A stretch of DNA of 61,988 nucleotides, filler included, from Porpidia crustulata (lineage: Eukaryota): NCBI GenBank assembly GCA_964255105.1. It is 8 parts of 8 records of this genome, joined end to end, with 100 filler letters (N's around TTAATTAATTAA, not from the genome) between each part and the next. Parts side by side here need not be neighbours in the genome. Positions count along the whole stretch, not along the records: positions 1 to 7,675 come from CAXUWE010001263.1; 7 more parts are not named here. One strand, 5' to 3'. Below, one piece after another: positions 1 through 35,676 of the stretch. The position numbers and the translations under genes were made by a program. Under the pieces are notes generated by a model. The model saw only the letters and a program-made list of their open reading frames with translations. It did no database searches and was not told the origin of the DNA. Every line of letters starts with the position of its first letter. Positions within the stretch are counted from its first letter, which is position 1.

Positions 1-382
1 GGAATGTTTGGGGGCTTGCAATGACGGAAGCTAGTACAATCGTCATTTGTGTATCTACGTTGCTAATCTAAGGTATCGTCTATGACAGGCACTTGGCGTC
101 GCTCGCCAGAATCCCAAAAAGAAAAAAACGCCCCCATTTCGAATCTAAGAAAGTACGGGAAGAGAAGACAGGGGGAGAGAGAGAGAGAGAGAAAGAAGGG
201 GGAAAATGATGCACTAATATCTAGTAAAGGGGCGATAGATAAAAAGGGGATCCTGTCAATCGTCTCGAATTGTGCACGGCATCAAGTCGTGGCGCTGCTT
301 ATCTTGAATCTTCTTTCCAGGCCCATGCGCCAATCCGCGGTATTCACCAAGACATGTCTAACGACCCTTTTAACTTTCTCTC

Positions 383-2335
383 TCACACACTCAGATAATA
401 AGGAATCTTCCTTGGATCAAGCGAGCGCCACACAAACGGCATACCTTGCGCCAAGCCATCCTCGTCGAACGTCTGGCCCCGGATCTTGTCGCTGACGCGC
501 AGCATTTCTTTGCGAAAATCCTCTGCGGCACGGCGCACGGCGGGGCAGGTGGGGGCGAGGAAGTCGGATCCGGACCACATGTGAGCGAGGTCCCCTTCTT
601 GCTGTTCTAGTAGGGGTCGGTTGAAGCGGACGAGCAGGGATGCCTGTTTCAGGGCTTCGGTGTCGTTGTGCAGGTAGGGCATCAGGGAGTCGATGCTGCC
701 TTTGGTGGTGGGCAGAGGTTTGTTGAACGCGGACGGGTGCAGGGGGAGGAGGCCGGAGGATTCGCCGGGGGTGGCGGCGTTGAGGACGTGGTGGCCGATG
801 CCGGCGAGGAAGGCGATGTGCGAGAGGATGGAGACGAGGACCTCGCGCTCTTTGAGAGGAAAAGAAGGGAAGTCGAGGACTTTGGCCTGTTCGACGCATT
901 CGAGCATCCAGGCTTGGGCTTCGTGGTCTTGGACCAGTAGCGCGTCTGAGGGATAATACGTAGCTACATATGTTTCTGTGAATTTGTGAATGGCGGCGGC
1001 CATTGGCTGAACGGTGTCATAAAACGGCATTGTCTTCAGTAGAGGCCCGTAAGTGCAGTTGACTAGCCCTCTGGATAAAAGGTCGTTTGCGAATTGACTG
1101 GACTGGAAAAGTCCCGCGTGCGTAGGATACAAGTCACTGGAAAGAGTTCTGCCGCCAAAGTTTGTAGGCGCAAACGAACTGTCGAAAAACCCGCCATCGT
1201 TGAAAAGAAACTCGTCGCCAATTGGACGCACTGCGTATGCTTGATACATTACTTTGTGAGCTCTGTCAGTATGTGAAACATTTGATCAATGTGTCGTCAG
1301 ACTCACAATGATCCAGGTATCCCCGTACTGGATGTCGTTTGCTCAAGGTTCGGAGGCCGGCGAGGTGGACCGGCTCAGCCACATCATGGGTATTCGCGAG
1401 ATGATAGATCTGGCCACGGAAGAGATCGTTCATCTCAAAGGCCATCTTCGCAAAGAGCCAGTCATTTGCATCGTCCATGGGTGTATATGTTATATCCGCT
1501 CCCCCGTTGGTCTTGATGGCCAAGGGTAGGAAATCCCCTGAGACGGGATGAATGAAGAAATACGCAGAGCATGCCGCCGTCCAGCGACCATGATTTGTGG
1601 GGTATTTCGCTTGTATTGAATGATTGGCAAAGAATAGACGACCGGAAGCATGTAATTCGCTTAGGTCGAGGTTCCCTGTAAGACTTTTCACGACGTCTGT
1701 CTCCACAGAGAATGGCAAATCATCATCCCTAGGATGTAATCGCTTCACTACATAGGGATTTATCGAGAGTCTCTCCATGGAAAACAAAAGATCCTGCGTC
1801 CAATTGGTCAGTACTCCAGGTGAGACGCCGTCTGGTATTGTCGCCATCCATTGATCTTCGTATATCGCCCTGTAGCTCGATAAATTTTGTAGTCCACCAG
1901 CCTAGAGGAATAAGTTTCGAATTTAGATAGTTACTTGAGACGCGTCAACATGCTCACCATGGCAAGTGCCTGTACCGCCTGAGGCAATTCTCTGTTGTTG
2001 ACATTATCCGTCACGTACTGAACGTCTCGGAACCACAACTGCTTGTCCCTCTGGACCATTGCATCTCCCAAAATGCCCGTAGGAAAGTAAGATGTATTAC
2101 CCAAAAGAGGCGATCCATAGAGATATCCCTCACGATTAGAGTGGATTTCTTTATAGCGTTCGGACCAGTTGATATCAAAGACTGGCAGCACAAAACCTTG
2201 TCCATCATCAGGGGCTCGTGGAGCGTTCGGCGCCAATACGTGCTGCTCATCAGGGGACCAGCAGAGACATTGTCGACTAAAGAAGAGGAAAAAGATGGCC
2301 CGGCAAAGTATACGCCAGCTCTGTAATGGCTCCAT
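383..2335 (-). CDS. Secreted fungal lipoxygenase (Val-group, Mn-LOX-related), 3 exons
   Basis: Introns about 1902-1957 and 1252-1306 join three ORFs. Hydrophobic N-terminus ([14 protein letters not shown]), WLFAK motif, HLANTH metal-ligand segment, HHVLN, C-terminal PYYLSV. Confidence 0.93.
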
Positions 2336-4193
2336 TATACAAGTTTGCGCGTATTCTGAGAGATTAGAACTTGCTTTACTCGAATAACCAACATTCACTC
2401 CTAGGATAAAGCTCGGAGTATCACTGAAAGACTTAAGCTTGACAAAGTGAGCAAGAAATCAGAACCAGACTCTGATCCCAATATAATTGTGGCTCTCTCT
2501 TCGTCATGGGGTACCAAGATTCCTGACGGAGGCTTCCAGCGTGACCGCCGTTGCCCCTTAGATCAGGGTATGCCCAAATTGGCGTGTATTGGCATGTAGG
2601 CATCGGTATGGCAGGAGACTTCCACATACCAATCCATCTCCTGGGATCATCCACCTAAGATGTCCCTCGAACAACCTACGCTCCTAGACCGTCAGGATTA
2701 TACAACATCCGCCACGCATATCGGATGTCTTTCGTCTATCCTGTCACTAGGATACCCTCACTAACGTTCTTTAGAAACTCATGTAAAATTGTCTTTTACT
2801 GGAACGGGGAAAACCGACCTTGGGAAACGGCCGATTAACGGATGGATCATCAGCCAGGGTAGGAGCAGCCGGCATTCCATAGTGGGCCAAGGCAAGAAGC
2901 AAAAGAACCAGGCACCATTGACACACTCCGGAGAAGAGGTTGAACAGATTAGTCGCAAGGAGTTGAACCTATTCGTTAGAGAGACAATGGATGTTGAAAT
3001 CGACCGTCGAAGAGCCTGCATAGGAGATTGCTAGCGTTGATTAGCTAAATTTGACGGAGCCCTGCTTCAGATTCTTCTCATACTGTATGCACTCGAAGCT
3101 ATAGCTGCATTGCATAAGAAGTATCCGTCCGTGCAGAGGCGATCGAAGAAACGTGTCAGCCATCCACAGCGAGAATGATGTTGAATGTGGGTAATACCAC
3201 AGCCGGTGTGCCGTTATCATAGATCTACCTACGTTAGCCCTATTTTAGCACGGCAATAATAATATAAGCGAAACTAATAAGCGAAATGTTCATCTCAATG
3301 TCGCCTCCGAAACCGCATCTTGAGTGGGGAGTGCAAAGAAAAGGAATCCACTACTCAACCCGAAAAGGTTTTTGAATATGATCACTTATTCGATAGTTGT
3401 GCAAGATGTGGATACATTGAGACTTGCGTCAAAGTGCAAGTAATTCGCTATGCGGGTTCGCTGGTTGTGCAAATGAACATGGCAATTGAGAAGGTCACGA
3501 AAGTACTTGCCAAATCAAAACATAACCCCCACAGTCAAAGCGCTTGCGTTGTAATCCTCAAGAGTTTTCTCCGAAAAGTAATGCGTTGTGTAGCACGTGG
3601 TCTGCATCCAGGCTTTCGAGCCTTATCAAGCTTGGATTGGCCAGCACATGCGCCCACTTCGCATGATTGTTGTAGCTAGATAGCCTTCGGGCGTTGACGA
3701 CCACGGATGGGCTCGCCTTAGTGCAACGCCTTCATTTAGGATTGTAGAAACCTTTTGCAATTGCAATCGTGCGTTGGACTCACCATTAGCTCACGTTCGC
3801 ATTACTAGATCAGGCCACCCGCCAGGAGGATCGATATCCTTGGGGGCTCCACCGCCTCTTGTTATCGGGAGTCCAACCGTGCTGTTTCACTATGGGGCCT
3901 TTCTCAGCATCGGTAGACGTATGGGACAATGGTGTAGAAGCGCCAAGGTATCTCGAAGGACAATCAACCTATAGTTCGTGATCATACACTATCAACGACT
4001 CCGAGTTGCTGCATGGGTTGATTGTCGGACAAGGGTTTCGGTAGTTGGTACAACTGGGGGCCAGCTGCTGACCATTGCTTTTGTTTAATAATTCGTTTGG
4101 TAAATGATAGCAGCTGTGGTCCAGATGAGAGCGCAAAAAACTTCTGCGGGCCAATACCAGCTCTGTAAGCTCGTCTCGTAGTTCAATTATTCA

Positions 4194-5470
4194 ATGATGA
4201 GAGCGGTCTTCTGGATAGTCCTAGGTTCGCTCGTGACAGGATATGCTTTCAGCAATGAAGTCTTTCATACCACGCCTCCAGCGGCATCGCGGCAAATAGT
4301 GCTTCAGGGAAACGACCGCGGTTTCGGACTGAACGAGCCATTCATACCTTCACCACAGCATATTCTACCAGACAAAAAGCTATTCGAGATTGACGAGGCG
4401 AAGAACCCCTACCAGAGATTCGTGAACGGCTCGGACAGCGGACTATACAGAAGATCGTCTTGTCCAGCCATTAATACATTGGCAAATCGCGGATATATAA
4501 ACCGTACCGGCCGGAATATCACATACTCAGAGCTGGCTCATGCAGTTCGCAAGGTGTGGAATTTCGGCGATGACAATGTGCGCTCCCAAGGGATATTTGG
4601 TACCCATTTCCTCTTCGCTGACGAGTTGTGACAGAGTATGCTAGTGCTCGCGCCAACTTTTGCACTCCATGGTTGGCCTGAGACGATTGATCTCGACTGG
4701 TTCAATGTAAGTCGATGCAGCATAGGAGTTTGACCACATTTACTCATCTTCATAGGATGATAGCGTACAATACGCCGTCAACTGTCCGGCCGCACCCACA
4801 CGGTAATCTATTGACCCAGAAAATTGCCTTCAGCTTTGAGGATAACAAGAACTTCAAGCTGTGGAAAGTATTGCTGATAGCTCCACGTCTAGCAATGATC
4901 GCGCCATTGGTGACAACATCAATATCAATATGACGCTTTATGATTCGTTAATTTCGTTCTCGAGCGATGGCGAAACCCTTTCACTCGAAGATATGGCTGA
5001 GCACCATCACCTCAGACATAACCAAAGCCTAGCCGAGAATCCGACATTCATTTTCGGCAACCAGGGCGCCATATGCTCGCTGTAGGTGGCATACAAGCTC
5101 TTTATACACAAACAGCACATATTGACATGATGAATAGGGCCCAATACACAAACATGGTCGGCGTTTTGGGCAAGGACGGCAAACATGGACGAACAACACT
5201 GTATGTGAACGATGTGGAAACATTTTATCTCAAAGAAGACATACCAAAGGGATATAGACGACGAGAATCACCGGTAGGTGACTCAGAATACTAAGAGATA
5301 CTGGCTGATACAGACTCAAGTACTACTCCACAGAGTCGAATGCTTTGATAGATAGAATGTCGTATCACGTAGGCTACACCATCCAGAGACCGTTCCCGGA
5401 TGATGATCAGGAGCCAGGCCATGACATCTGTCCGGTCGTGGCTAGATTTCAGGAGGACAGCTGTGCTTGA
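4194..5470 (+). CDS. Secreted heme-thiolate peroxidase/chloroperoxidase-family protein with atypical motifs, 6 exons
   Basis: Signal peptide; RSSCPAINTLANRGYINRTG matches the RxPCPxLNxLANHG heme-thiolate motif; RHNQSLAENPTF. Exons about 4194-4577, 4635-4706, 4756-4802, 4893-5081, 5138-5273 and 5321-5470 keep frame. Confidence 0.8.
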
Positions 5471-5963
5471 GACGGCGATGTGGTCAATGAAGTGAAGTTC
5501 TTTATACCATAGACTGGCTTGGTACCGCGACATTCGCGAGGAGACGAGGTAGCTAGATAGCTTAGCGACCATAGAGACAAGACAAAGACAGACGAAGATG
5601 CTTGTCAGCAAATGTAGCTGTTGCAATATGAAGCATTGTGCTTTTGGTATCTTTTATCAACGACGAAGGGTCGATTATGCAACAAAGTGAGTGAGGTGCC
5701 CTGCGCTACACATATAGATAAGCTCATATCCAACCCCGCCATATTCGGATGATTGGTAGCGCGCTCTTTCTCGCTCTATAAAGCCTATAAAATATCGATA
5801 GGCAGCCTCTTCATATTCATGAAGATTGCTCTTATTAATATCCATTGCCTTACCACGTCATGTATACCGTGTGAAATTCATTGTGATGAATTCAAGAACG
5901 TAGCATCATCCAGACAGGTGCTTTTGCGCTCCCAACTCCTTTCGCACGTATTCGACATACAAT

Positions 5964-7392
5964 ATGGGTCTCGACAGATTTACACGGGCTCCCGCGAATC
6001 ATCTCTGGAATTGCTTCTGGAATTTCCAATGGCACCAGAAAGGTCACTCTGCCGATGAGAGTTTTCCGGCATCAACAGAGAAACCCACGGGGCTCAGTTC
6101 TAGAACCATTGTCAAGCCCAGCGGGTCGCGAAACGCGCAAGATGGAAGGAGTCCTGGACATTCTACTCAGAGCCGGTACTTTCTCCGTTCTTCGCAGAGT
6201 GCCCAGCTCGAGATTCCCGTCCTGGCAGCAATAGGTGACGCTGTGGAAATGCCCGCGACCGAAATTGCCCATGCTGGCAAAGAAACGGTGCTCATTGCCA
6301 AGTGCATTCTCGCCTTCGACGAACTTCCGGAATGGATGCAAGAAGACCCGCATATCCGGCATGGTTACCGCACGCCTTCAAACAGTTTCAATGCGTGCGT
6401 CTCGTCGCTCTTCTATCCGCACAACGAGCTTGTTAATACTTGGTCACATTTACTTCCGGCCATTTTCTTCCTGTTCCTGCTACTAGCAGCAGATTGTACA
6501 GTGCTATGTAGCGGCGTTGAGATTTCCTTTCAGGACAACCTGATAATGCAGACTTATATTGGGGGCACGGCGTGCTGCCTCTTTTTTTCAGTAAGTGAAA
6601 TCTCGGTACAAATCTGTGCCTTCTTCTCTCTACTCATAGATCGGAAACGATTTCTTAAGGATTGGTTTCCCAGAAGCGCGACAAGGCGTACGTGCGCATC
6701 GACCTAACTGTAGTCATGATTAGGCCACATTTCACTGTTCAAATGCACACTCCGAAGCAGTTGCTCGCCGCTGTCTGAAGCTTGATTACCTTGGCATCGT
6801 CGTAACCATTTCCACAACGTGCATCTCTGCTACCTACTTTGGTCTTTATGGAAACACACGCCTACAGGTGCAATACATTGCCTTGACCTGCCTCTGCGCT
6901 GCGGCCGTGTTCCACGCCACTCTGAAGCCGCATGCAGATGGACCTCGTGCCGCCGCATGGAGGTAAGCTTCTCACCATAGCACGCTTGGATTCTTCGTTG
7001 CCTCTCTGAATCCGCGTAGGGCTACTGTGTTCATCGCCCTCGCACTTAGTGGCTTTGTACCGGTGGCACACGTTATCCTGGTACAAGGCGCACAAGGGTT
7101 GCAGCAATTTCCACTCGCGAGCATTGCAGTAACGTGCGTTTCTTATCTGATTGGTACTGGGTTTTATATCGCTCGCGTTCCAGAAAAGCTTTGGCCTGGA
7201 GTCTTTGACGTTTGGGTATGTAGTGTGATAATCAACAATCCCCTCGCGATGGAAGATTATTTGAAACTGACTTTGTCGTTTGTGAACCACTTCCAGGGAG
7301 CGAGTCATCAGATTTTTCACGTGCTGGTAGCATTTGGTCAGCTTGTGCACTTATTTGGGTTGAGGGATGTGATGTCGAGGCAGTATCGATAG
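5964..7392 (+). CDS. PAQR / hemolysin-III (IZH-like) membrane protein, 4 exons
   Basis: LPEWMQEDPHIRHGYR, HNELVNTWSH, KLDYLGI, RVPEKLWPGVFDVWGASHQIFH. Introns about 6591-6723, 6963-7019, 7216-7295. Confidence 0.92.
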
Positions 7393-7675
7393 ATCAGACT
7401 ATGGGCGTAGACGCAGGCCAATTGTTGGGAAGCCTCTGTTGAGCAGCTCGCACATGAGTTTTCCAACCGAAAGATGACTGAGGGTTGAGACTTAAGTCAT
7501 GCAATTAGATGTATCGTCCGGATTCATAGTAGAATCGTAGCAAAGGAGAGATGCCCATATCTAAAATATAGGAAAAGTAGACCAGAACCTTGGTGCCACT
7601 CCGGCGCTAACCCCAAAGCAACCAAACCCTCAAACCCTCCGCAAAATAATAATTCAATCGCTCATCCTCCATCGA

Positions 7676-11837: not shown

Positions 11838-12852
11838 GTCGTGGTACTTGATGGTTGCAGGGAATCTTAGGGCAGCGAAGTGATTTAGTGACGACTTTCT
11901 TCTCTAAAAATCCGGGGAACGTTGACGAAAGCGAGGTGTTCGGAGCTTTCGTAGCAGCAGCAGCAGCACTTGGAGATCCTGGTTTATATGACGGCTGGCG
12001 GGGTTTCTTTCTTTGTACCGAAAATACCCAAGAGTGCCATGTAGTTTCACACATAGCAATAATGCAAAGTATGAAACAAAGGTAGGACTTGGTGGAACTG
12101 ACACTGGTGAAAGTTTGGTGATTTGGGTTGTGCCCATAGTGAGAGTGTGATCATGGGGAACTGCGCCTCCTTGAGGTGGCTAATGAGTATCTGCCTATTC
12201 AAGCACTCGAGCTACTTTCAGACGTACACCGAATCTCCCTTATTGAATCAAATTAATGAAGCATGACATCCTACAAGGCGTTTGTCTAATGTGCATAAAA
12301 AATGAAGTAGGTTGGGAAGATTCAAGAGAACGGATTTGTCGACAATAGGCCAATACTATGGTAGAGATTGGACGACCTGACGCTTGAAGGTCAACAAGAC
12401 GTCTTGGGATTATCAAAAGCTATTGATAACGCTTTACGTTCTGCTATTTCATCATCAGTTTGGAACATCTTCCCTTCATCGTGATTTTATAATGTCGATA
12501 TGGAGTATTTGAACAACAGCATTACTCAAAATCCGTCAAGACGCCTTCAATCTTTGGTGCGTTATAGACTTTTTATCTGGTGGACACAATGAGCCCCAAT
12601 GGACCTGGAGCACGGAAGAAAACAATTATTACATCAATCAATGGAATCAAGAACTTGGTAGGCGCACATGGCATGAATATGACGACTTTCCAGGCATAGC
12701 TCTGATGTGGACGATATCTAGGGCGCTGGGACACCATTTGGAAGGAGAACTTGGACTTGAGTAGGGTACCCACGGATAGCAGCCTTCGCAATGTACCAGT
12801 GGAGTCCAAAGTCGACCTCGAAATTGTCAAGATTGGGGTCGTTTACACCGAG

Positions 12853-14820
12853 ATGGATGCATTCAGGCAGGATGCTGTCGAGACATATTTTGCCACGAGA
12901 GTAGACGAGGAGGATGTCGAACTCGATAGTGAAACTAAGGATCCTCAATCAGTTGATTTTTGTACTTGTACTCATCCACCGCTGCAAGGCTCCCAAGACA
13001 TCAGAGTGTTGGAGCTTTATCCGGGAGACTTTACGGATGAGTTGTCATGCGCGTTGCACATCTGCTCAGTTGACTTTGAATATTCTGCTAGCATTGACGA
13101 ATCCACAGGTCTCAATTTCGCACCATACACTAATCACGCAGTGTTTCGAGAGACAGGCCAGCTAGTTTGGTATACCGCCCTTTCGTACGTCTGGGGTGAT
13201 GCTACACTTATCATGCCAATAAATTGTAACGGACTACCGATTTATACAACTAGAAATTTGGACATTGCACTACGTCACCTCAGGCAGACGGATGTGGCTG
13301 TAATGCTATGGATAGACCAGATTTGCATCAACCAGGAGGATCTGGATGAGAAATCACGTCAGGTGATTCTGATGAGTAAGATTTATCAACGTGCTTGGAG
13401 TACAATTGTATGGCTTGGTGAAGAAGCCCATGACAGTGATAATGCTATGGACACCCTGAGAACGATCAACGAAGCTCTTCAGTACTACACCGATGAGAGA
13501 GCTCCTGACCCCGAGGACTTTGAGCGACTGTCTCTCCCGGCTCCTGATTCACAGGAATGGGCAGCATTGAGCCAATTCCTCGACCGGCCCTGGTTCCAGC
13601 GAGTATGGGTCATTCAAGAGGTTGTGCTTTCGAATAACATCCAGGTCGTTTGCGGGAATAAGACCCTTCCCTGGTCTGATATAGGCCTCTTTGCCATCTG
13701 TATGGTCACTCACGACCTCACACGGTATCTCAACACTAGCACAGATGTCAAAGGACCGGCTATAGAGACAGGCTATCGTCATATTCTACGGATTGATAGT
13801 ATCAAAGACCATAATGACACTCTTACTGAACCATTACCACTATTACAGACGTTGGTGGAAGCCCGTGGCGCTCGAGCCACCGATCCAAGGGATAACGTCT
13901 TTGGGGTCATGGGCATGTCGTCGACACTGATCTATCCTGACTACTCCCAAGCTATATTTGACGTCTATACGGAGGCAGCCCGGACGATGGTCACAGACCG
14001 TCTGATGAATCTTTTATGCTGCGTTGACAACGTAGAGCCGCTGCCAGGCCTTCCGTCCTGGGCTCCAGACTGGAGTTCTGCCCGGCAAACGACATCATTC
14101 GGCTATCTCGAAGCCGGCCGCGGGATATATCAAGTAGCGAAAGGATCAAAGCTGTCATTCAGCATCGGGCAAAATCGCGACTCCCTCATCATCGACGGCA
14201 TCCTCTTTGACACTGTAACCTGCATCACCGAAGTAGCCAACCCTTCGTTGCAAGACCTTCTCGACGCTCAAAGTCCCGCCAGTCAATTCGTCGCGCAAGG
14301 CTTGTATCTCGCAACTGCCTACTGCGGTCCCTACCCTGCCCCATGCGGTCTCTTCGACGCTTTTTGGCTCACTCTCGTCGCTGGTAAGGACCATTCCGGA
14401 AAGACAAAAGCCCCTGCCGATTATGCTCCCATTTTCGCGTTGCTTATCGACTCCATCACCGGCTACACGCCCTCTTTCCCTGATCAGCCGTCGGCACAGC
14501 GGAAGCTGACACTTGAGAACCTGAAAACAAGACGTCCTGGCCGCATGTATCGCGAGATACAGATCGCTTTCGAGATCGCAGTCCAGGGGCGGAGATTTGG
14601 TACGACCGCAAACCGCTACATGGGGCTCTTTCCTAGAGGAACAAGGGCGGGAGATGAAATATGTGTGTTTGCGGGGCCATGCGTCCCCTTTGTTGTGAGG
14701 CCCGTCGAGGGGGAAATTGGGGTATTCCAGCTTGTGGGAGAGTGCTACGTGCACGGAATCATGCGTGGAGAAATCATGTCGATGGATGACTTCGAGATGC
14801 AAGGAATCGAGCTAGTGTAA
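12853..14820 (+). CDS. HET-domain (het-6-like) heterokaryon incompatibility protein
   Basis: IRVLELYPG, YTALSYVWG, LWIDQICINQ, MSKIYQRA, WFQRVWVIQE, ATDPRD, LPSWAPDW, GECYVHGIMRGE. The start codon is uncertain (ORF is open from 12751). Confidence 0.93.
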   Translation: MDAFRQDAVETYFATRVDEEDVELDSETKDPQSVDFCTCTHPPLQGSQDIRVLELYPGDFTDELSCALHICSVDFEYSASIDESTGLNFAPYTNHAVFRETGQLVWYTALSYVWGDATLIMPINCNGLPIYTTRNLDIALRHLRQTDVAVMLWIDQICINQEDLDEKSRQVILMSKIYQRAWSTIVWLGEEAHDSDNAMDTLRTINEALQYYTDERAPDPEDFERLSLPAPDSQEWAALSQFLDRPWFQRVWVIQEVVLSNNIQVVCGNKTLPWSDIGLFAICMVTHDLTRYLNTSTDVKGPAIETGYRHILRIDSIKDHNDTLTEPLPLLQTLVEARGARATDPRDNVFGVMGMSSTLIYPDYSQAIFDVYTEAARTMVTDRLMNLLCCVDNVEPLPGLPSWAPDWSSARQTTSFGYLEAGRGIYQVAKGSKLSFSIGQNRDSLIIDGILFDTVTCITEVANPSLQDLLDAQSPASQFVAQGLYLATAYCGPYPAPCGLFDAFWLTLVAGKDHSGKTKAPADYAPIFALLIDSITGYTPSFPDQPSAQRKLTLENLKTRRPGRMYREIQIAFEIAVQGRRFGTTANRYMGLFPRGTRAGDEICVFAGPCVPFVVRPVEGEIGVFQLVGECYVHGIMRGEIMSMDDFEMQGIELV

Positions 14821-25767: not shown

Positions 25768-27076
25768 TTAGTCATTGTAGTTTGATAGACGAGACCCATC
25801 TTTGTCCACTTTCGGCTGGCCATAGCGGGCAGAGATCTCTTCCTCTTGCGATTTTCCAGCACTATCGAACACGGGACGCTCTGCTTGAGAAGCAACACGA
25901 ACTGCGTGACGACGGTGGGGAGCAAATCCGTACGACGCAGAATGATTCTACGGTCTCCATTAATGCTCGAATTAGGGCAATGAGGGAAGCATATTACTTA
26001 CAGTGATGCGATTGTCCCAGAACGCAACGTCATTCTTTTGCCACTGGAAGCGAACGTGGAATTCTTGTGTGGTTGTAATCACTTCGTTTAGATACTTGAT
26101 TACGGCGTTACTCTCCGCTTTTGGGACTCCGACGATGGTCGTCACGAAGCCAGGGTTGAAGAACAAAGATTTCCATCCAGTCACAGGATGAGTACGAACA
26201 AGCGGGTGCTCGGATATGACGGGTTCACGACGGACCGGGCGGCCAAGAGCTTTAGAGCCTTCAGATTGAATGCCGGCCGAGTGTAAAGCCGTGAGTCCTT
26301 CGAGATACCGTTGCATGGAAGACGAGAGCACATCATAAGCCGCGTATTGAGAAGCCCACAAGGTGTCGCCACCGCCACCACGTGGAGGGCCCGAGAGAAC
26401 CTTGAGTGATGTGTAGGAGGGAGGCTGAATTTCGTAAGTCACCTATAGAAAGTTAGCAAGACGCAAACCCTGCTTGGCGCGATGTGTTTACATCCGAGTG
26501 CCAAAGAAACGATGGCTCAAAGAGGGCGCGCTGATCTCTAGACTTCTCATCCGTGTATACGACATGAACATCTTCCAAGCCGGGTCGCCTGGGAACAGCA
26601 GTGGTCGCATGCTTATGGAGCTTACCAAAGTACTGTCCAAGTTCCCGTTGGGCGTCTATGTCCAAGTCGGTCTGGTTTCGGAAGAATACGACCCCTCGAA
26701 CCGAGATCAGACGGGCCAAGTCATTCTTCTGTGCATCTGTAAGCTTGGCCAAATTGATGCCAGCAATCTCAGTGCCGATCTTGGGGTTATAGTCGAAGAT
26801 GTCGGTGGCGGCGTCAAGGAGATTACGGAATTGAGGATGACCATGAATACCTTTGTCATGATATGGCACTTCCGTTAAAGGCTCCCAATGGATGTCTGGA
26901 AAAGTTGGGCGGAGATCTTCATGCTCATAGAAGTCGTGACTCTCCACATCCGTATGGCCGGGCTCGTATACTAAGTCTTGTGTCTTCGTACGCGACTTTG
27001 ACCAGGCGAGGTCATGGTTGGTGATTGGCTTGGCGTAGACCGAGTAGGCATAGGGTTCTTCCAAAGACGGAGTCAT
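25768..27076 (-). CDS. TauD/TfdA Fe(II)/alpha-ketoglutarate dioxygenase (Jlp1-like sulfonate dioxygenase), 3 exons
   Basis: PKIGTEIAGI, RGVVFFRNQ, WHSD/VTYEIQPP, GGDTLWAS, EHPLVRTHPVTGWKSLF, FWDNRIT/NHSA...RRHAVRV. Confidence 0.93.
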
Positions 27077-29949
27077 ACTAGGATGTAGGTGAAGTATCTT
27101 TGTTGATGGACTACTTATGAGACTAAACACTCAGAGAGAATCAATCAAAAGTTAGGAAGTGGAATGAGGGAGGAAATTTAGGAAAGGTAGCAGGATATTA
27201 AATAGGGAAGGGCAGAAACAGATGAGAAAGCAACGGATGACGAATCCCAATAAGATGAATGCTACCGACTTACCTGACTATTAGGTACTGTCGGGTTCGA
27301 ATCACACTGCATCGCATCATCAAGTGGAAAATGGCAACACCAACTCATTATACATTACAAATTACACAGCAGTCACCTGGATCGGCCAAGGCCCCGGACA
27401 GGTCGTTCAGTCGGATGTTGATTAAATTTGCAGCTTTCTCCACATACCGTAAACCGTTTCAGGTCAGTAAACACGCGAGGATCCCGGGCAGCTGGTGTTA
27501 CTGCCAGTTGTATGCCCATGGCGCAGAAGGCTGTTGATTACTAGCGCTGACCCTGAGCTTTATCATCTCGCCTGCAAATAGCGACATAAGGGTCGATACC
27601 ACACAATAGACAAACGGCGGAGATATACGCTCTCAAGAGTTCCTATCTCTCATGACTACCACGACAAGTGAGCGTTTGACTGCTTTCAAGCACAAAGTTG
27701 GGAGTGTCGTTGAATAAATCCGTTACTCTCGTTAGTTGGTGAGCTAACATCGGCGCTAACTCCACAATTATCTTAGCGTGTTCCACCCGCTCCCCTGGTC
27801 GCTTGTCTCCCTCTCAGCACGCAACCACATCTGCAAATGACACAATCAAGACAATGAGGCCCCCAAGCAAACGTATAATTCACCTGAATGGACCGGCTCC
27901 GCATCCAGCATGAGCATGTTTCGCTCCTCTCCTTGCATTGCACACAATGGAGATCGTTATGCATCTGCCTTCACCGCTTATGTGAGTCTGCGGAATACCA
28001 ACAATATAATCGGATTCGGATTACTAGCAACTACTTCAGCCCTCACAGTTGCGACGCGGTTGCCTGAGATGACCTGAAAAGAGACATATCGTGGCGCCCA
28101 GCTAGATGCCCAAGTAAGAAGTATCATCGTTCCACTCATCACACTGCCCGCTGTACTTGCCCCGGTAGCGTATGTCGGCCCCCGCAGCTCGAACTCTTCA
28201 AGTCAACAGCTCAACAAGTCAAAATTCCAAGAGGCCAGACTATTCTCCCGAAAGGATTGGTACATATCGATCAATCAAATATGACATTAAGTGTATTGTA
28301 CGAACTTTGTGTCATCCGTCCCATCCGGCTGGCGCCTGGTCTTTCTCTGTTTGACCTTGACAACCACTGTACATGCAAACGGCGCTTCAGGTCAATCGAG
28401 CCTGTCGCTTTCTGAAAGAAACCTGTTCACTTGAAGGTGGTCTCCTTGAACGGCTTCTTGTTCTGGCGGAAATGACGCTGCAAATTCTTGAATCACTACC
28501 ATGTTGATGGATTCGGTGACATGCGTTAGGTCTCAAGACTTCCCGACTCCAGCGCGGCACTAAATCTTGAGCTTTGTTCTTCACACCATCATTTCGGCCG
28601 TTTGCCTCTTCATGATTTCGTCGAGTATGTCGGGGGCTGTGTGGTGACCAATTACCTCGTATTGTTCAGTCAGTCAATAATCATGCGCTTGCTGACTTGT
28701 TTATGGGTAACCTCAAACGAGGCCTTGATCCCCGCTCATCAGAGTAAGAGGACTATTCGAACCATGTCACGCGCAGTCGCAGACTTTTCAACAGTAGCAT
28801 TACCTGCCACAATCCTCCAGATCATTTCGGTCCTTGATGGTCTACGAACTGCGCTTCTCTATTGTCACTCGAATCTGATTCTGAATCCAATGCTCTACTA
28901 CAGGTGCACTGTATTCTATCACAGGACTTATCGTATTAGATGGATAGAAAGATGGGGATTTTCCGCAATTATCTTCTAGCGCATGTAACGTCGCCTTTTC
29001 TTCGCTTGCTATCTTATATGTGTGTTGCGCCGTAATCATACAGGAGTCATCGATTATCGCCTGCTTCAACTCGTTTGCGATTTCCTCCCGCTTCACCGCC
29101 GCCCCCACTATTATCTTGATAAGAACTTTGAGGTCCTTATGTTCGATGTCCATGCGCTAGAGGTGAAAAGGGATTGTATTCCATTAACACCAACCACCGG
29201 TCGTGGCAATCTGTTTCGGGGTTTGGATCGCCATTGTTCCAGGAGGTTGGTCCGAACTGTTAGGCCTGTTTAGCTAACGGGATCTTAATGCTGTATGGAG
29301 GCATTGTTCACTGCTCCACACGCTGATAAGAAGAAGCTCTTGCAAACTCTAATTTCTAGCAGCAAATTAAGCTAGGTCAGTGTTTTCAGCCTCTTACGAC
29401 TACCAGTGCTATCTAAGTCTCCGTGGCTTCCTGTCGGAAGACTTCTACAATCACAGTGATGTGTTCGGCGTTCGACAGCGTTTGGGCAGGGGACGTGCAA
29501 GATACGGCATCGGCTTTAAAAATCGTAGAGTCTGCAAGCCGGTCTTGATGCGTTCTTGACACAGCAGCTAATACTCTTGGAGTATCCTTTAGATTCGTTC
29601 ACTGTCCTTGAGCACTACCATGTCGGTTATTGGAATCTCTGGTCACAGTTTTTTGGTTGCCCCAAGGAAGCCTATGTCATCCGATGGTACGTCAAGCACC
29701 TGCAGGAGGTAAGCACCCGAGGCCGTGTCCTTGTGTTCAAAATAGCCTATTCCTGGGATGCACGGCAGATTTGCAAAGTCGAGGTAAGTCCAGTACTCGA
29801 GCATTGATTCCGCTAGTCAACATCAATTCAGCAAAACAATCAAATCTAAGAAATCAATTGTTGGGAACGAAGACGTTTAAACATCTAAATACCCATGTGC
29901 TGAAATGCATTTATGGTCCGCACAATAAGCTTTACGCTTACAGAACCTG

Positions 29950-31347: not shown

Positions 31348-32038
31348 AGTTGCCAGCTCAAGTCTGGTAGGATGTCCTGAGATCCTTCGGCTGCAACGGT
31401 ACTGCAGGATTCTTGCTGGTGTGAACCAGTGATTGATGGTAAGCCAGACTGTATCGCAAAAGGGATGTAAATATCAGACTATCACGGAGCCAGCGTGTTT
31501 AGTCATGGCCTTGCATAGCCGATAATTTCACTATACGTAATAGTGGTCACGAAGCAATACTAGACTGGAATCTCAGCTCACATCGTCGCATCATCTCTAG
31601 CTTCGCATTGAAATATGAGAAGCTTTAGAGATGGGGCACATTGACAGAGCGGGAAGTAAAATGCTGTTTACTCTAGTCCGAGAATCGTTCCATATCCGTA
31701 GTACTGAACTTCGATCCGAGCGACGTCAGCTTACACTCAGTTCCGCCTTTCATTTGATATTTGTCGCTTTCCGTTCAGATTGTCAATATTTGCTCTTTAG
31801 ATCTTGACATGAGTATGGCGATTCCCCGCCTTTTCCCTAAGTGTCGTATTTAAGTGCGATATTTGAATCAATAACCTAGAATTTTTGGATAAAGCGACAT
31901 TGATCAGAAGAACGTCTCGCTCCTGAAACAGCGTAAGTGACGACCGTCCAATCTCGATATTTCTATTTTGACTTATTTATTTCAAGATTCATATTGAAAT
32001 TGGCGCTGTGGGCTACCAGCCAGAAGAGTGTCGAGGCC

Positions 32039-32716
32039 ATGGGTCATGAGTTTCAGAGAATCTCAATGGAAGAACCACCGATGGAATATCGCCCAGGCAG
32101 ATGCTCTGCGACTGACTTGGAAAAAGACCATTTCGATGTTGGATTGGCAGAAAGTTTGAATCAACTCTTTCGGCGACTTCGGCTGCTTTACTTCATTCTC
32201 GCCGGCATAGTCATCTTAGCGCTACTAGCAGTGATCAGTGCAGTCGTATGGCCAATCCGGGCTCATACGACCGATCTCATTGATCCTGCTAGCCTTCAAA
32301 CGCAGTTGCAATGCGGAGCCTCCACAAAAGAAGCACAAGCTCTCGGATGCAAATTCGACATTCTTGCAATGGCATGGCTACCACCAGCTTGTGTGGATCC
32401 AGGATTAACGACTGAATTTCGAAGTTATGAGAAGTGGCGATACTGGGCAGACGAGCAAGCCACAGTCGAATTGCGGGAGGATGAGTTGTGGAACCGTTCT
32501 GGTCCGGATGGGGTTGTCTGGGCACCGTTGAAATGGCACCTAGTCCATTGCAACTTCCAATGGCAGAAAATGAACCGAGCCATGCTAGTGGGGAGGAGGA
32601 TTGAAGCAGCGTTGGCCGATTTGGCACATACAAAGCATTGTGGAAATATTGTACTCGACCGTTCTGGCCTCGATGAGCTCAGGACGGAAATAACCATAGC
32701 TTTTTTGACTTGTTGA
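32039..32716 (+). CDS. DUF3328/UstYa-related double-HxxHC protein
   Basis: Single TM anchor; CGASTKEAQALGCKFDILAMAWLPPAC; HLVHC and HTKHC; C-terminal Cys; intronless. Confidence 0.8.
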   Translation: MGHEFQRISMEEPPMEYRPGRCSATDLEKDHFDVGLAESLNQLFRRLRLLYFILAGIVILALLAVISAVVWPIRAHTTDLIDPASLQTQLQCGASTKEAQALGCKFDILAMAWLPPACVDPGLTTEFRSYEKWRYWADEQATVELREDELWNRSGPDGVVWAPLKWHLVHCNFQWQKMNRAMLVGRRIEAALADLAHTKHCGNIVLDRSGLDELRTEITIAFLTC

Positions 32717-33300
32717 ACTAGGTTGTTAGAAACTCAAACTCATGCTGCTATTTAAAACAGTCAATTGACCGAAAATATTCTTGCAAAGAGCTTATGTTCG
32801 AGCAGTAAATGTGACACTTTGCAGAACCAAAATCCCTCGTTTACTAGGATAATCTCCCCAACATCTCATTACTGGTTTGTTTATTATCCTCAAAGGACGT
32901 AGCAGGTGCTCAAGAGAACGCCCCACCTGACTTGGACCCAGGGCTCGTGAAGTTGGCTACTCAGTATTCCTGGGCCGGTCTTGTATGCGGAATTGAAGCT
33001 TTTCCGTGAGTCTCTCGGATATTCTGGCAAAATATTTCCGACTGATGATATGGAAAAATTATTGGCTCCTAGATCCGCAAATCTGTCATTGATTGCTTTA
33101 TTATATGTGCCCTCAAGGACACTTTGGCACTCGATATGATAGTGCTAAGCAGTGCATTTTTTTGCGTAAAGTTTCGAGCGGTACCGTCAGAACCTTTAAT
33201 TCTACGCTGCAAAAGTCTGGAAATTGATTATCATGTGTGAAAATTGTCACCTTTGGTTATTATATTATGTAGTTGCTGACCTATTTTGCTAGTCGTGAAC

Positions 33301-34038
33301 ATGTCGTCTGCCGAAACGGAAACTTCAGATCCCCTCGTACCCAAATCGTCATTCGAGCAGGAACGCTTTGATCAGGAAGCATTGCTTTTGAAGACCCAGT
33401 TTGAGAGCGAGAGAAGCACCGCTCGTTCGAGACATTATCGACACATTTGGACAGTGGCATGCCTTCTCGCCGGGGCTCTCGCCACTATCGTTATTCTAGT
33501 ATTGACGCCTAGCATCAAAATCGAGATCCATTCCAAACCGTCTAACCTGGATATTGGCTGGAATGATGCACTTCAAGTCACAGAAGAGCCTTTTGAGAAT
33601 GGATACTGGTGCGGCCATTCCGCGGAGGAAGCCAGATCTCGCGGCTGTCGATTTGATCTTGTCTTATTCTCGTGGGTTCCTCCACAGTGCTATGACCAAG
33701 GCTTGGAAGACATGTACACGGAACGCCAATTTGAATGGTGGAGGAATGAGAACGGGTCGGATGGCGTTTCACAAGAAGTTGCAAAGCAGGGTACTGAGGA
33801 AATCTTGTGGCTCAACTGGGATTACCACGTTTGGCACTGCAAGCACATCTGGAAGATGATGACTCGGGTCTTAAGAAACTCGACACTCGGTATTCCAGGG
33901 AGTCTTCTCGAGTATGAGCACACGGAACATTGTATCAACGTCCTCACAGGAGACGAGGGTTATCCGCTTGGCGAGATTGGCACACTGGTCACGCTCAACT
34001 ACTCAACCTGCTATACCAAAAATACTGGAGGAATGTAG
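33301..34038 (+). CDS. DUF3328/UstYa-related double-HxxHC protein (paralogue of 32039-32716)
   Basis: Single TM anchor; CGHSAEEARSRGCRFDLVLFSWVPPQC; HVWHC and HTEHC; YSTC near the C-terminus. Confidence 0.8.
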   Translation: MSSAETETSDPLVPKSSFEQERFDQEALLLKTQFESERSTARSRHYRHIWTVACLLAGALATIVILVLTPSIKIEIHSKPSNLDIGWNDALQVTEEPFENGYWCGHSAEEARSRGCRFDLVLFSWVPPQCYDQGLEDMYTERQFEWWRNENGSDGVSQEVAKQGTEEILWLNWDYHVWHCKHIWKMMTRVLRNSTLGIPGSLLEYEHTEHCINVLTGDEGYPLGEIGTLVTLNYSTCYTKNTGGM

Positions 34039-34620
34039 CGTCAAGTAGAGCGTATCAATAATCTAGGGCAGGAGGGCACCGGACTTGTGGGTTCTGCGAG
34101 TTCTTAAGCTCAAGCGTTTCTTGGTTGTCAAGTCGTGGATTTACAAAGTAGTATGTAGGTGGGGACACAACAGATTTACGGCCAAAGCCCCAGAATTCAT
34201 ACACTTGAATGCTTTTACCCTACAATTTCCGCCCCGTTGCAAGTCAGCACCTCCCACCTCCCGAGTGTTGATAATCTTGTGAGCAAAAATATCTTACATG
34301 TAAATCTTTAAAAATTGGGAGAAGCCGATATTGGCGCCAAGGACTTCTTCGCCTTATGGTTTGGTCTATTCAATTCAAGTACCTAGACACCTAGATTATT
34401 GCAAGTAATGTGTAAGAATAGATTACGGGTGTAAAGGTATGCCGTGAGCGTCATGCAGCTGATCGGTCCGCGAGTGCGGATTGCCGGTTAAAATTCTGAT
34501 CGAATAACTCCTACAGCATAAGATTATCCACACGCATCGCAAGCATTCTCAGGATGTGCCGCATAAATAAATCACATTGCTTTGGATCTCTGAGCAATTC
34601 TTCTCACCAAGACATTAAAA

Positions 34621-35676
34621 ATGGGGTTGGTATCTTCGATCATCAGCTTTTCCTCCAAACCCTCTCAACTCTATGAGTCTCTCAGCGAATCAGACTCGGA
34701 GTTTGCGTCTCCAATGTTCAGAGAGAAGTCGGTATACCCAACCCAAAGCTGCCATCGTAGAGACTGATGAAGTAGGAGAAGCTTATTGGATAAGCCGGCC
34801 CTTGTAGCGAGTTTTGGAAAAAGCATGCTATTGTTGTGTTGCTTTTTGCTCGGGTTTGCATCAAGCATTGCTTGGACAATGCTCAGCTACGATCCACCCG
34901 CTGTTCCCGGCGTTCCAGGATGTGAGTTGACAGAAAGCTCATCTTCAACAACTCAAGTTAATTCGTCATCTACCACTCAAGATGTCACTAACCCCACATA
35001 TTCGACCACCTGGATGCCAGATGAGCGGTATGCCCTTGATAGAAACGATAGCACAAGCGCGGCAGCATGGGACATCCTAGAATCTCGTAAGACCCGTCTT
35101 TCTTTGCCGAAATCTTGCCCAGAATCATATTTTTTGAAAGCCACATGGATTGATCTGATCTTGCAGGATTTGTTTTCATCGACAATCCACTTCAGAAAGG
35201 CCTACAGCCTTCAGCACCGAAGGGCATGCCTCGCCAGGTCTACTCGGTCGCTGCATTTCATCAATTACACTGCGTGTATGTTTGTGTCGGCTGGCCGTGG
35301 AGTAGACAGAAAGTGTGCTAATGTATTATAAACCAGAGGTGTGATCCGGTTTGCTTGGCACACGCTGCTTCAGGACGGACGAGAAGCACTTGAAGCAGAA
35401 TTTCCAGGAACTTTTGGAGAGTACACGATAGGAGGGCATTTCGAGCATTGCGTAGAGATCGTTAGGCAGGCGTTGGTATGCTTTGCTGATGCTACGCTGG
35501 GACCCATGATGGGGGAGGATGGTAGGATCTCGGAAGCCGGTATCGCGACAGGATGGGGCGCATTGCATACATGCAAGAACTTTGATAGCCTTGTTTCTTG
35601 GGTGGATGGGCAGGAGAGTGTTCACGATGAGGATGTCATAGAACCGGGTGCCTTGCCAGGAATGCCCTTGAGTTGA
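34621..35676 (+). CDS. Canonical UstYa-family (DUF3328) oxidase, 4 exons
   Basis: Introns about 34728-34775, 35087-35166 and 35276-35336. TM anchor; AAAWD; VYSVAAFHQLHC; HFEHCVEIVRQALVCFADATL; GWGALHTCKNFD. Confidence 0.9.

What the first reader, a model, noticed from the sequence alone, without database searches (positions are those of the whole stretch)
383..5470. Head-to-head secreted lipoxygenase and heme-thiolate protein: candidate extracellular oxylipin pathway
Seen: the two genes diverge from a shared ~1.86-kb region on the same contig and both have signal-peptide-like N-termini. Known: LOX hydroperoxides are normally handed to a specialised heme enzyme (plant CYP74, the catalase-related allene oxide synthase of coral and cyanobacteria, P450 domains of fungal dioxygenases). 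Inference: a chloroperoxidase-fold protein may fill that role here as a hydroperoxide isomerase, lyase or peroxygenase. I do not know of this pairing being described.
Basis: inference. Interest (0 to 1): 0.78.

Follow-up and report, generated by a model that had tools for sequence, protein, structure and literature searches.

The report
Lipoxygenase-partnered, rewired fungal heme-thiolate enzyme
Many moulds and lichen fungi keep a fat-oxidising enzyme gene next to a peroxygenase-like gene whose normal catalytic residues are replaced, which points to an untested enzyme family that probably reworks fatty-acid peroxides into signal or defence lipids.

Summary
Confirmed and extended. A Mn-type lipoxygenase (613 aa) and a UPO/chloroperoxidase-fold protein (325 aa) diverge from a 1,858-bp spacer. 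The genome's only other LOX hit sits head-to-head with a paralogous heme protein (55-60% identity). The pair recurs across five Pezizomycotina classes: 19 of 20 testable homologues lie within four genes of a LOX, 16 adjacent, including A. fumigatus Afu4g02780 beside loxB. The two trees are congruent.

The heme protein keeps the thiolate Cys and the short-UPO fold (Z 25.9). It replaces the EHD motif with NCP (0 of 43 keep EHD) and the acid-base Glu with Gln (41 of 43). It is therefore unlikely to be an ordinary H2O2 peroxygenase.

Best reading (0.6): a self-sufficient enzyme that rearranges, or transfers oxygen from, the LOX hydroperoxide, like CYP74 or catalase-type LOX partners but on a different fold. 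It lies in a small cluster with a PAQR gene.

No activity is shown. LOX co-expression is only modest, and 'extracellular' may not hold for every member. Ten full-text searches of open-access papers found no description of the pairing.

The parts
383..2335 (-). Manganese-type lipoxygenase, 3 exons (2335-1958, 1901-1307, 1251-383), 613 aa; H293-x4-H298, H478/H479-x-x-N482, C-terminal Val; hydrophobic N-terminus
   Evidence: Model; PF00305; 66% identical to A. fumigatus LoxB-type P0114, 45% to the Nakataea (M. salvinii) and P. oryzae MnLOX
2336..4193 (.). Shared divergent spacer, 1,858 bp (presumed bidirectional promoter; not shown)
   Evidence: No remnant of CN-hydrolase, DUF829 or thioesterase genes; no alignable DNA with the spacers of C328, L019, L025, L028 beyond one 17-bp match at E 0.26
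4194..5470 (+). Non-canonical heme-thiolate (UPO/chloroperoxidase-fold, PF01328) protein, 6 exons, 325 aa, hydrophobic N-terminus, 5 N-glycosylation sequons, no C-terminal -EL
   Evidence: Model; Pfam; 72% identical to A. fumigatus Afu4g02780-type P0062; AF2 model of homologue P0009 pLDDT 90.6, Z 25.9 to MroUPO
4461..4463 (+). Cys90, presumed heme thiolate ligand, in S-C-P (canonical P-C-P)
   Evidence: Cys kept in 42 of 43 clade sequences (35 SCP, 7 PCP, 1 gap); aligns to the PCP Cys of MroUPO
4780..4788 (+). Asn161-Cys162-Pro163 in place of the canonical Glu-His-Asp motif
   Evidence: HMMER alignment IEHDASL versus INCPAAP; 0 of 43 clade members keep EHD
5074..5076 (+). Cys229, co-varies with Cys162 (inferred disulfide at the site of the His-Glu dyad)
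   Evidence: 35 sequences have both Cys, 4 have neither, none has one only, after 4 of 43 with a gap or mis-spliced residue are set aside
5142..5144 (+). Gln233 at the column of the acid-base Glu of short UPOs and CPO
   Evidence: Gln in 41 of 43 clade sequences; Glu in 62 of 80 distant PF01328 proteins at the same profile column
5964..7392 (+). PAQR/haemolysin-III-family membrane protein gene, third conserved cluster member (start codon uncertain)
   Evidence: PF03006; found on the same side of the HTP in C328, L017-21, L025/26, L028 and as Afu4g02800 in A. fumigatus

Best explanation
The heme-thiolate protein is the dedicated downstream partner of the Mn-lipoxygenase. LOX makes a fatty-acid hydroperoxide in the secretory pathway or cell wall. 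This is published for the A. fumigatus orthologue LoxB (13-HPODE) and inferred here. The partner binds the hydroperoxide at a Cys-ligated heme and cleaves its O-O bond with no H2O2, NAD(P)H or reductase (inferred). The acid-base Glu, the charge-relay His and the cation site are replaced by Gln, an inferred Cys-Cys bridge and Asn. The pocket therefore resembles self-sufficient P450s with a distal amide, and the likeliest product is a rearranged oxylipin (epoxy alcohol or diol). Allene-oxide or lyase chemistry and hydroperoxide-driven epoxidation are not excluded. PAQR and the variable genes (thioesterase, CN hydrolase, DUF829, P450, MFS) suggest further tailoring, sensing or export (inferred). 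Shown: gene pair, recurrence, co-inheritance, fold, residue replacement. Inferred: heme binding, substrate, product.
For: Own genome: both LOX hits are paired. Named homologues: of 40 HTPs, 31 carry a name and 20 could be matched to a LOX of the same assembly; 16 are adjacent, 3 lie 2-4 accessions away, 1 is unlinked. Metagenome DNA: LOX head to head in 8 of 15 clade loci (three lineages); 5 of the 7 without LOX have under 1.3 kb of upstream DNA. Control: 0 of 65 distant HTP loci have a LOX hit, though only 22 are 6 kb or longer. Trees of 22 pairs recover the same four supported groups, which cut across fungal classes; Mantel r 0.93, 0 of 5000 within-class permutations reach it. Active site. 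Canonical motifs PCP-EHD-E and the roles of His105/Glu183 are from PMC6417270 (passages). Distal Asn in plant AOS, PGIS, LDS and EAS, with AOS N321Q keeping some activity, is from PMC13049297 (passages). The well-flanked LOX-less loci L023 and L030 each carry a frameshift in the HTP. In A. fumigatus the HTP tracks Afu4g02730-02760 and 02790 at log-Pearson 0.75-0.91 over 24 samples.
Against: No enzyme of this clade has been assayed. A distal amide is neither required nor diagnostic: TXS and some AOS have non-polar or Thr residues, and the Asn is dispensable in LDS and EAS (PMC13049297). HTP-LOX co-expression is modest (Pearson 0.58, Spearman 0.40; 0.33 and 0.23 without the two late heat-shift samples). 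That is no higher than two neighbours outside the cluster (02860: 0.69; 02890: 0.60), and LOX is near zero in most samples. One exception among named pairs: Heterodermia HTP Q9195_002230 and LOX Q9195_008831 lie on different contigs. Tree congruence is expected of any long-linked genes and does not show shared chemistry. loxB overexpression accumulates plain 13-HODE (PMC5422543), which also fits simple reduction. The model has no heme and its coordinates could not be inspected, so the Gln position and disulfide rest on alignment columns.
Confidence: 0.6

Rival explanations
1. The protein belongs to the cluster's pathway but acts on a later intermediate (after thioesterase, hydrolase or P450 steps), not on the LOX hydroperoxide.
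For: The cluster has further enzymes: thioesterase, P450, MFS at C328 and L017-21; CN hydrolase and DUF829 at L025 and in A. fumigatus. In A. fumigatus the HTP correlates better with DUF829 (0.91) and MFS (0.83) than with LOX (0.58).
Against: Only LOX, HTP and PAQR are constant across the DNA loci; the other genes vary. Without its acid-base pair the protein needs an organic peroxide as oxidant, and LOX supplies one (inference).
Confidence: 0.13
2. It is a protective lipid-hydroperoxide peroxidase that only reduces the LOX product to the hydroxy fatty acid (13-HODE type), using a co-substrate.
For: 13-HODE accumulates in supernatant of OE::loxB A. fumigatus (PMC5422543 passages). The F. graminearum catalase is a 13S-hydroperoxide-dependent peroxidase (PMC11719350 section 5.3).
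Against: The Botrytis member BcPRD6 is not among the four peroxidases named as H2O2- or infection-induced (PMC11959156 section 2.3; figure not seen). A family-wide rebuilt pocket and strict pairing look more specific than generic detoxification (inference).
Confidence: 0.12
3. It is a catalytically dead or heme-free UPO-fold protein that carries lipid, or chaperones or anchors the LOX in the secretory pathway.
For: All canonical distal catalytic residues and the cation site are gone. 8 of 40 homologues end in -EL.
Against: The thiolate Cys (42 of 43) and the proximal-helix motif PAxNxLANRG are kept, and the replacements are themselves near-invariant at 51-60% overall identity, which suggests selection on a new active site.
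Confidence: 0.1
4. The adjacency is old synteny with no functional link.
For: Linked genes are inherited together regardless of function. One unlinked case (Heterodermia). Modest co-expression with LOX.
Against: The pair persists across five classes while spacer length (about 1.0-3.3 kb) and flanking genes turn over. It was kept twice in this genome in two deep paralogous groups. LOX-less copies at L023/L030/L031 are frameshifted.
Confidence: 0.05

Closest known systems
Short unspecific peroxygenases and chloroperoxidase (MroUPO, CviUPO, LfuCPO; PF01328)
   Same: Fold (Z 25.9, rmsd 2.6 A over 229 residues to 7zbp; Z 22.4 to 1cpo), proximal Cys, secretory-type N-terminus. CviUPO epoxidises fatty acids (PMC11719350).
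   Different: About 20% identity; EHD replaced by NCP, acid Glu by Gln, PCP mostly SCP; N-terminal extension of about 60 residues; co-varying Cys pair; bound to a LOX gene, which distant HTP loci were not (0 of 65, many short).
Plant CYP74 (AOS/HPL/DES/EAS) and fungal DOX-CYP fusions (LDS, EAS, AOS)
   Same: Cys-ligated heme acting, as proposed here, on an upstream dioxygenase's hydroperoxide; amide at the distal position (PMC13049297).
   Different: P450 fold versus UPO fold; separate secretory-pathway gene beside a Mn-LOX rather than a cytosolic fusion or plastid enzyme. Activity untested here.
Catalase-related LOX partners (coral, Anabaena and Acaryochloris catalase-LOX fusions; F. graminearum Fg-cat)
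   Same: A peroxide-handling heme fold re-used on the hydroperoxide of a linked LOX (PMC11719350). That Fg-cat is encoded next to its 13S-LOX is recalled, not from a call.
   Different: Tyr-ligated catalase fold versus Cys-ligated UPO fold; partner here is a Mn-type LOX.
Secreted epoxy alcohol synthase of Magnaporthe salvinii working with 9S-MnLOX
   Same: A hydroperoxide isomerase reported with a MnLOX (PMC11719350 section 5.3; paper title says both are secreted). That MnLOX falls inside the LOX clade holding all HTP-paired LOXs, in a group of 9 (support 100) with the paired Stachybotrys LOX.
   Different: That its gene was never identified is recalled; the original paper was not held. No Magnaporthales HTP of this clade appeared among named hits, so identity is only a lead.
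A. fumigatus LoxB (Afu4g02770) and Afu4g02780
   Same: Orthologous pair (64-66% and 72% identity). LoxB is a signal-peptide Mn-LOX making 13-HPODE (PMC5422543). Afu4g02780 is listed in a formic-acid conidial extract at low abundance, 0.7 mean unique peptides (PMC7389560 Table 1).
   Different: Afu4g02780 is annotated only as 'toxin biosynthesis peroxidase, putative'. The loxB paper contains the word 'peroxidase' 0 times in its main text.

Membership tests
Heme-thiolate peroxidase superfamily (PF01328) | Peroxidase_2 profile match and UPO/CPO fold | tested here: met
   Exon 1 55.3 bits, exon 4 27.4 bits, cut-off 26.9; homologue P0009 116 bits; Foldseek and VIA matches
Heme-thiolate peroxidase superfamily (PF01328) | Proximal Cys in a P-C-P motif | tested here: met
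   Cys90 kept; motif is S-C-P here and in 35 of 43 clade members
Heme-thiolate peroxidase superfamily (PF01328) | Binds heme through the Cys | not testable with these tools
   Needs spectroscopy
Canonical short UPO / chloroperoxidase | EHD motif (charge-relay His, cation site) | tested here: not met
   N-C-P; 0 of 43 keep EHD
Canonical short UPO / chloroperoxidase | Distal acid-base Glu | tested here: not met
   Gln in 41 of 43 versus Glu in 62 of 80 distant proteins at that column. The printed MroUPO alignment stops a few residues before this column
Long UPO (AaeUPO type) | EGD motif with Arg/Glu pair | tested here: not met
   No EGD at the motif column in any clade member
CYP74 / DOX-CYP hydroperoxide isomerases | Cytochrome P450 fold | tested here: not met
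   Best structural matches are all UPO/CPO; no p450 Pfam hit on P0009. This lowers 'is a CYP74', not 'works like one'
CYP74 / DOX-CYP hydroperoxide isomerases | Self-sufficient turnover of a fatty-acid hydroperoxide | not testable with these tools
   Needs enzyme assay
Fungal manganese lipoxygenase | His-x4-His, His/Asn pair and C-terminal Val; nesting among MnLOX | tested here: met
   YHLANTH at 292, GHHVLN at 477, ends YLSV; groups with A. fumigatus LoxB-type proteins
Fungal manganese lipoxygenase | Mn cofactor, positional specificity, secretion | not testable with these tools
   Published for the orthologue LoxB only (PMC5422543)

The most novel reading that the evidence does not exclude
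This clade is a third protein fold, after P450 and catalase, recruited to rearrange lipoxygenase hydroperoxides. It encodes one of the orphan fungal activities (the secreted epoxy alcohol synthase seen with Mn-LOX, or a 13-allene oxide synthase or lyase of fungal jasmonate or volatile synthesis). LOX, HTP and PAQR form a conserved make-and-sense oxylipin module, present in A. fumigatus, Botrytis and lichen fungi.
Probability: 0.3. Interest if true: 0.92.

Novelty: new variant of a known kind. Interest (0 to 1): 0.8.

Why it matters
The natural roles of UPO-family enzymes are largely unknown, and several fungal oxylipin steps lack genes. The 2024 review calls the mushroom hydroperoxide lyase uncharacterised, and a 2026 paper says it is unknown whether fungal jasmonate genes are clustered. 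This gives a named candidate with a predicted substrate: Afu4g02780 beside the well-studied loxB, testable with one recombinant protein and commercial HPODE. If right, it adds a new fold to hydroperoxide-rearranging chemistry, gives a UPO-fold protein a physiological job, and means loxB phenotypes may come from a downstream product nobody has looked for.

Tried and rejected
Literature: ten full-text searches of the open-access library returned no description of the pairing or of the NCP/Gln subfamily. I saw most hits as listings only, and subscription papers (including several Oliw reviews) are not covered.

Papers checked and found not to cover it: PMC6417270 has 0 occurrences of NCP, SCP or lipoxygenase. 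PMC8464941 examined LOX neighbours in other Penicillium species and saw no cluster, using same-strand neighbours only (passages). The M. salvinii paper was not held.

Earlier scan notes: nothing by words, sequence or place.

Spacer: no gene remnant and no conserved DNA.

A Ppo/DOX-CYP gene upstream of the LOX-less HTP at L023 first looked like an alternative hydroperoxide source. I dropped this because that HTP is frameshifted and the sister copy L030 appears to keep only the tail of the DOX region.

Magnaporthe linkage: MGG_08498 is annotated as a P450 (PMC3490861) and MGG_08499 is a secreted protein (PMC10728069). That MGG_08499 is the LOX is recalled, and nothing was found on MGG_08500, so this is unresolved. 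AFLA_106900/106910 are MFS genes; their nearness to Aflox is recalled only.

No complex prediction was run, as binding is not claimed. My first gene models (616 and 321 aa) were corrected to 613 and 325 aa after comparison with homologues. A working note that all six A. fumigatus genes peak together was wrong: the PAQR gene peaks in another series.
Full report
OBSERVATION. The window is a string of fungal contigs; places 1-7675 are one contig, G000:C1263. Splicing by GT-AG rules and comparison with homologues gives a 613-aa lipoxygenase on the minus strand (2335-1958, 1901-1307, 1251-383) and a 325-aa PF01328 protein on the plus strand (six exons, 4194-5470), with start codons 1,858 bp apart. 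Both begin with a hydrophobic stretch (no dedicated predictor was available). The LOX has the His/His/His/Asn pattern and C-terminal Val of Mn-LOX and is 66% identical to the A. fumigatus LoxB-type protein. A PAQR/haemolysin-III gene follows the heme protein (HTP) at 5964-7392.

SECOND COPY IN THE SAME GENOME. Family searches found two LOX loci and three PF01328 loci, as lower bounds. The second LOX, on C328, is also head to head with an HTP, 1,155 bp apart, in the order P450, PAQR, thioesterase-like, HTP, LOX, MFS. The paralogues are 60% (HTP) and 55% (LOX) identical, so the pair is old. The third HTP (C76) keeps PCP and an ESDSS motif and had no LOX hit in 8 kb.

RECURRENCE IN NAMED GENOMES. 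A search with the C328 core exon returned 40 proteins: 31 named, 9 unnamed. For 20 of the 31, a LOX from the same assembly appeared; the other 11 could not be tested. Sixteen are adjacent by locus tag or accession: Xylographa bjoerkii, Aspergillus sclerotioniger, A. affinis, A. fumigatus, A. aculeatus, A. felis, Penicillium roqueforti, P. freii, Botrytis cinerea (two entries), Gallowayella weberi, Villophora, Teloschistes hypoglaucus, Xylariaceae FL0255, Hypoxylon NC1633 and Stachybotrys elegans. For the A. fumigatus entry the adjacency was seen in other members of its cluster. Three lie 2-4 accessions away (Periconia, Bathelium, Phaeosphaeriaceae PMI808). One is unlinked (Heterodermia). Cluster members add A. 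melleus, G. concinna and Monosporascus as adjacent. Accession order does not give orientation.

RECURRENCE IN METAGENOME DNA. Of 15 clade loci, 8 show the LOX head to head (three lineages), 5 have under 1.3 kb upstream, and 2 (L023, L030) lack it. The HTP is frameshifted in those two and in L031 (assembly error not excluded). None of 65 distant HTP loci has a LOX hit, but only 22 are 6 kb or longer. PAQR lies on the far side of the HTP in the window, C328 and all three LOX-bearing metagenome lineages. A. fumigatus has Afu4g02730 P450, 02750 MFS, 02760 PaxU/DUF829, 02770 LOX, 02780 HTP, 02790 CN hydrolase and 02800 haemolysin-III (PMC5715996 supplement S3), four of which match genes at L025 besides the LOX.

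CO-INHERITANCE. IQ-TREE trees of 22 pairs recover the same four supported groups in both genes. The 22 are the two own pairs, 18 accession-linked pairs, and 2 paired on equal contig length only. The groups are window + Pleosporales + Eurotiales; C328 + Xylographa; Teloschistales; and Xylariales + Bathelium + Stachybotrys. Botrytis and the deep order are unresolved, and long branches are flagged. Distance correlation is 0.93; 0 of 5000 within-class permutations reach it (mean 0.68). In a FastTree of 59 LOXs, all 24 paired LOXs fall in one 45-row group (midpoint root, very short stem), which also holds the Nakataea (M. salvinii), Pyricularia, Colletotrichum and Fusarium Mn-LOXs. Whether those keep an HTP neighbour is untested.

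ACTIVE SITE. An AlphaFold2 model of homologue P0009 (pLDDT 90.6) matches short UPOs (Z 25.9, rmsd 2.6 A, 229 residues, 20% identity). HMMER aligns MroUPO IEHDASL to INCPAAP. Across 43 clade sequences the proximal Cys is kept in 42, none keeps EHD, and 41 have Gln at the column where 62 of 80 distant PF01328 proteins have Glu. PMC6417270 (passages) gives PCP-EHD-E as the catalytic pattern, with His105 directing Glu183 in peroxide cleavage. The Cys replacing that His co-varies with a Cys one turn before the Gln: 35 have both, 4 neither, and 4 were set aside for gaps or mis-splicing. The four losses are not all independent, so the disulfide is an inference. The earliest-branching-looking member seen, from Geopyxis, already has Asn and Gln. 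The protein thus belongs to the HTP superfamily but fails the canonical UPO/CPO test.

MECHANISM. An enzyme that keeps its thiolate but loses the machinery for H2O2 activation, and travels with a hydroperoxide-making enzyme, is most simply a self-sufficient hydroperoxide-transforming enzyme (inference). Plant AOS, PGIS, LDS and EAS carry a distal Asn, and AOS N321Q still makes some allene oxide. The same review shows the amide is dispensable and accompanies both homolytic and heterolytic cleavage (PMC13049297 passages), so the product class cannot be read from sequence. I put 0.6 on rearrangement or oxygen transfer from the LOX product, with an epoxy alcohol or diol most likely. A fungal epoxy alcohol synthase acting after a 9S-MnLOX is described for M. 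salvinii (PMC11719350 section 5.3; reference title); that its gene is unknown is recalled.

EVIDENCE AGAINST AND LIMITS. In 24 A. fumigatus RNA-seq samples the HTP rises from 0.7 to 17.7 FPKM in the 30-to-37 C series along with Afu4g02730-02760 and 02790 (log-Pearson 0.75-0.91). Its correlation with LOX is only 0.58 (Spearman 0.40), LOX stays under 1.5 FPKM, and neighbours outside the cluster reach 0.60-0.69. Only 25 expressed neighbouring genes were compared (4 near-zero rows of the 29 shown were left out), with no genome-wide background, and 730 genes rise at that time point. OE::loxB cultures accumulate 13-HODE (PMC5422543 passages). On location: LoxB needs its signal peptide to reach wall and septa, and Afu4g02780 appears weakly in a conidial surface extract of a rodA mutant (PMC7389560 Table 1 row). 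However, 8 of 40 homologues end in -EL, so some may stay in the ER; the window protein does not. No RNA holder was listed for this organism.

NOVELTY. Ten searches of open-access full texts found no report of the pairing or the subfamily. Subscription papers, bioRxiv supplements and the original M. salvinii paper were not visible and could hold one. Papers seen as passages: PMC5422543, PMC13063583, PMC8464941, PMC6417270, PMC13049297, PMC10813956, PMC7389560, PMC3490861, PMC10728069, PMC12155302. Passages plus one named section: PMC11719350, PMC11959156. Passages plus one supplement part: PMC5715996. All others were seen as listings only. The logic (LOX plus a heme hydroperoxide enzyme) is known from CYP74 and catalase partners; its realisation on a UPO fold with a rebuilt pocket, in a conserved LOX-HTP-PAQR cluster, appears undescribed. 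Verdict: new variant of a known kind, interest 0.8.

Noticed in passing
window 5964-7392; L013 2532-3715; L025 8475-9545; L028 7779-9035: A PAQR/haemolysin-III gene is the third constant member of the cluster; role unknown (oxylipin sensor, lipid hydrolase or self-protection are guesses).
   Followed up: partly
L013 2-5184, L016 2620-5667 (G000:C328); L017-L021: The paralogous cluster adds a P450, a 4HBT-like thioesterase (below Pfam cut-off), an MFS transporter and a 260-316-aa ORF without Pfam hit; it looks like a small biosynthetic cluster with no PKS, NRPS or terpene core in the stretch seen.
   Followed up: partly
L023 2300-11000; L030; L031: LOX-less clade HTP copies are frameshifted. 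L023 differs from L030/L031 largely by C-to-T and G-to-A changes (RIP-like, by eye). L023 has a Ppo-type DOX-CYP gene, DUF829 and a Tle1-like/DUF2235 gene upstream; DUF829 also flanks the LOX at L025 and in A. fumigatus.
   Followed up: partly
A. fumigatus Afu4g02830 (PMC5715996 supplement): An aldehyde dehydrogenase five loci from the HTP is co-induced about 280-fold in the same series (log-Pearson 0.80, Spearman 0.29); would fit a lyase product but may be coincidence.
   Followed up: no
proteins P0002, P0019, P0023, P0024, P0025, P0028, P0030, P0037, P0126: C-terminal -EL in several HTP homologues, like an ER-retention signal, absent from Aspergillus and window copies.
   Followed up: partly
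window 31937-35331 (another contig): Three tandem ORFs; the first two share a CG-x-S-x-x-EA-x-x-x-GC-x-FD...W-x-P-P-x-C motif that I recall from UstYa/DUF3328 oxidases of fungal RiPP clusters. Pfam gave no hit at E 0.001, so the label is unverified.
   Followed up: partly
window 12706-14820, 25972-27130, 37082-38736, 39233-41248 (other contigs): HET-domain gene, TauD dioxygenase, MFS_2 sugar transporter and fatty-acid desaturase; ordinary fungal genes, not linked to the finding.
   Followed up: partly
L015 1925-3405 (G000:C76): Canonical-type HTP (PCP, ESDSS) beside an alpha-1,3-glucan-synthase-like gene (label recalled).
   Followed up: no
proteins P0130, P0160: Unnamed long proteins with three canonical Peroxidase_2 repeats, one with ubiquitin-like and one with ricin-type lectin domains; outside this clade.
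   Followed up: no
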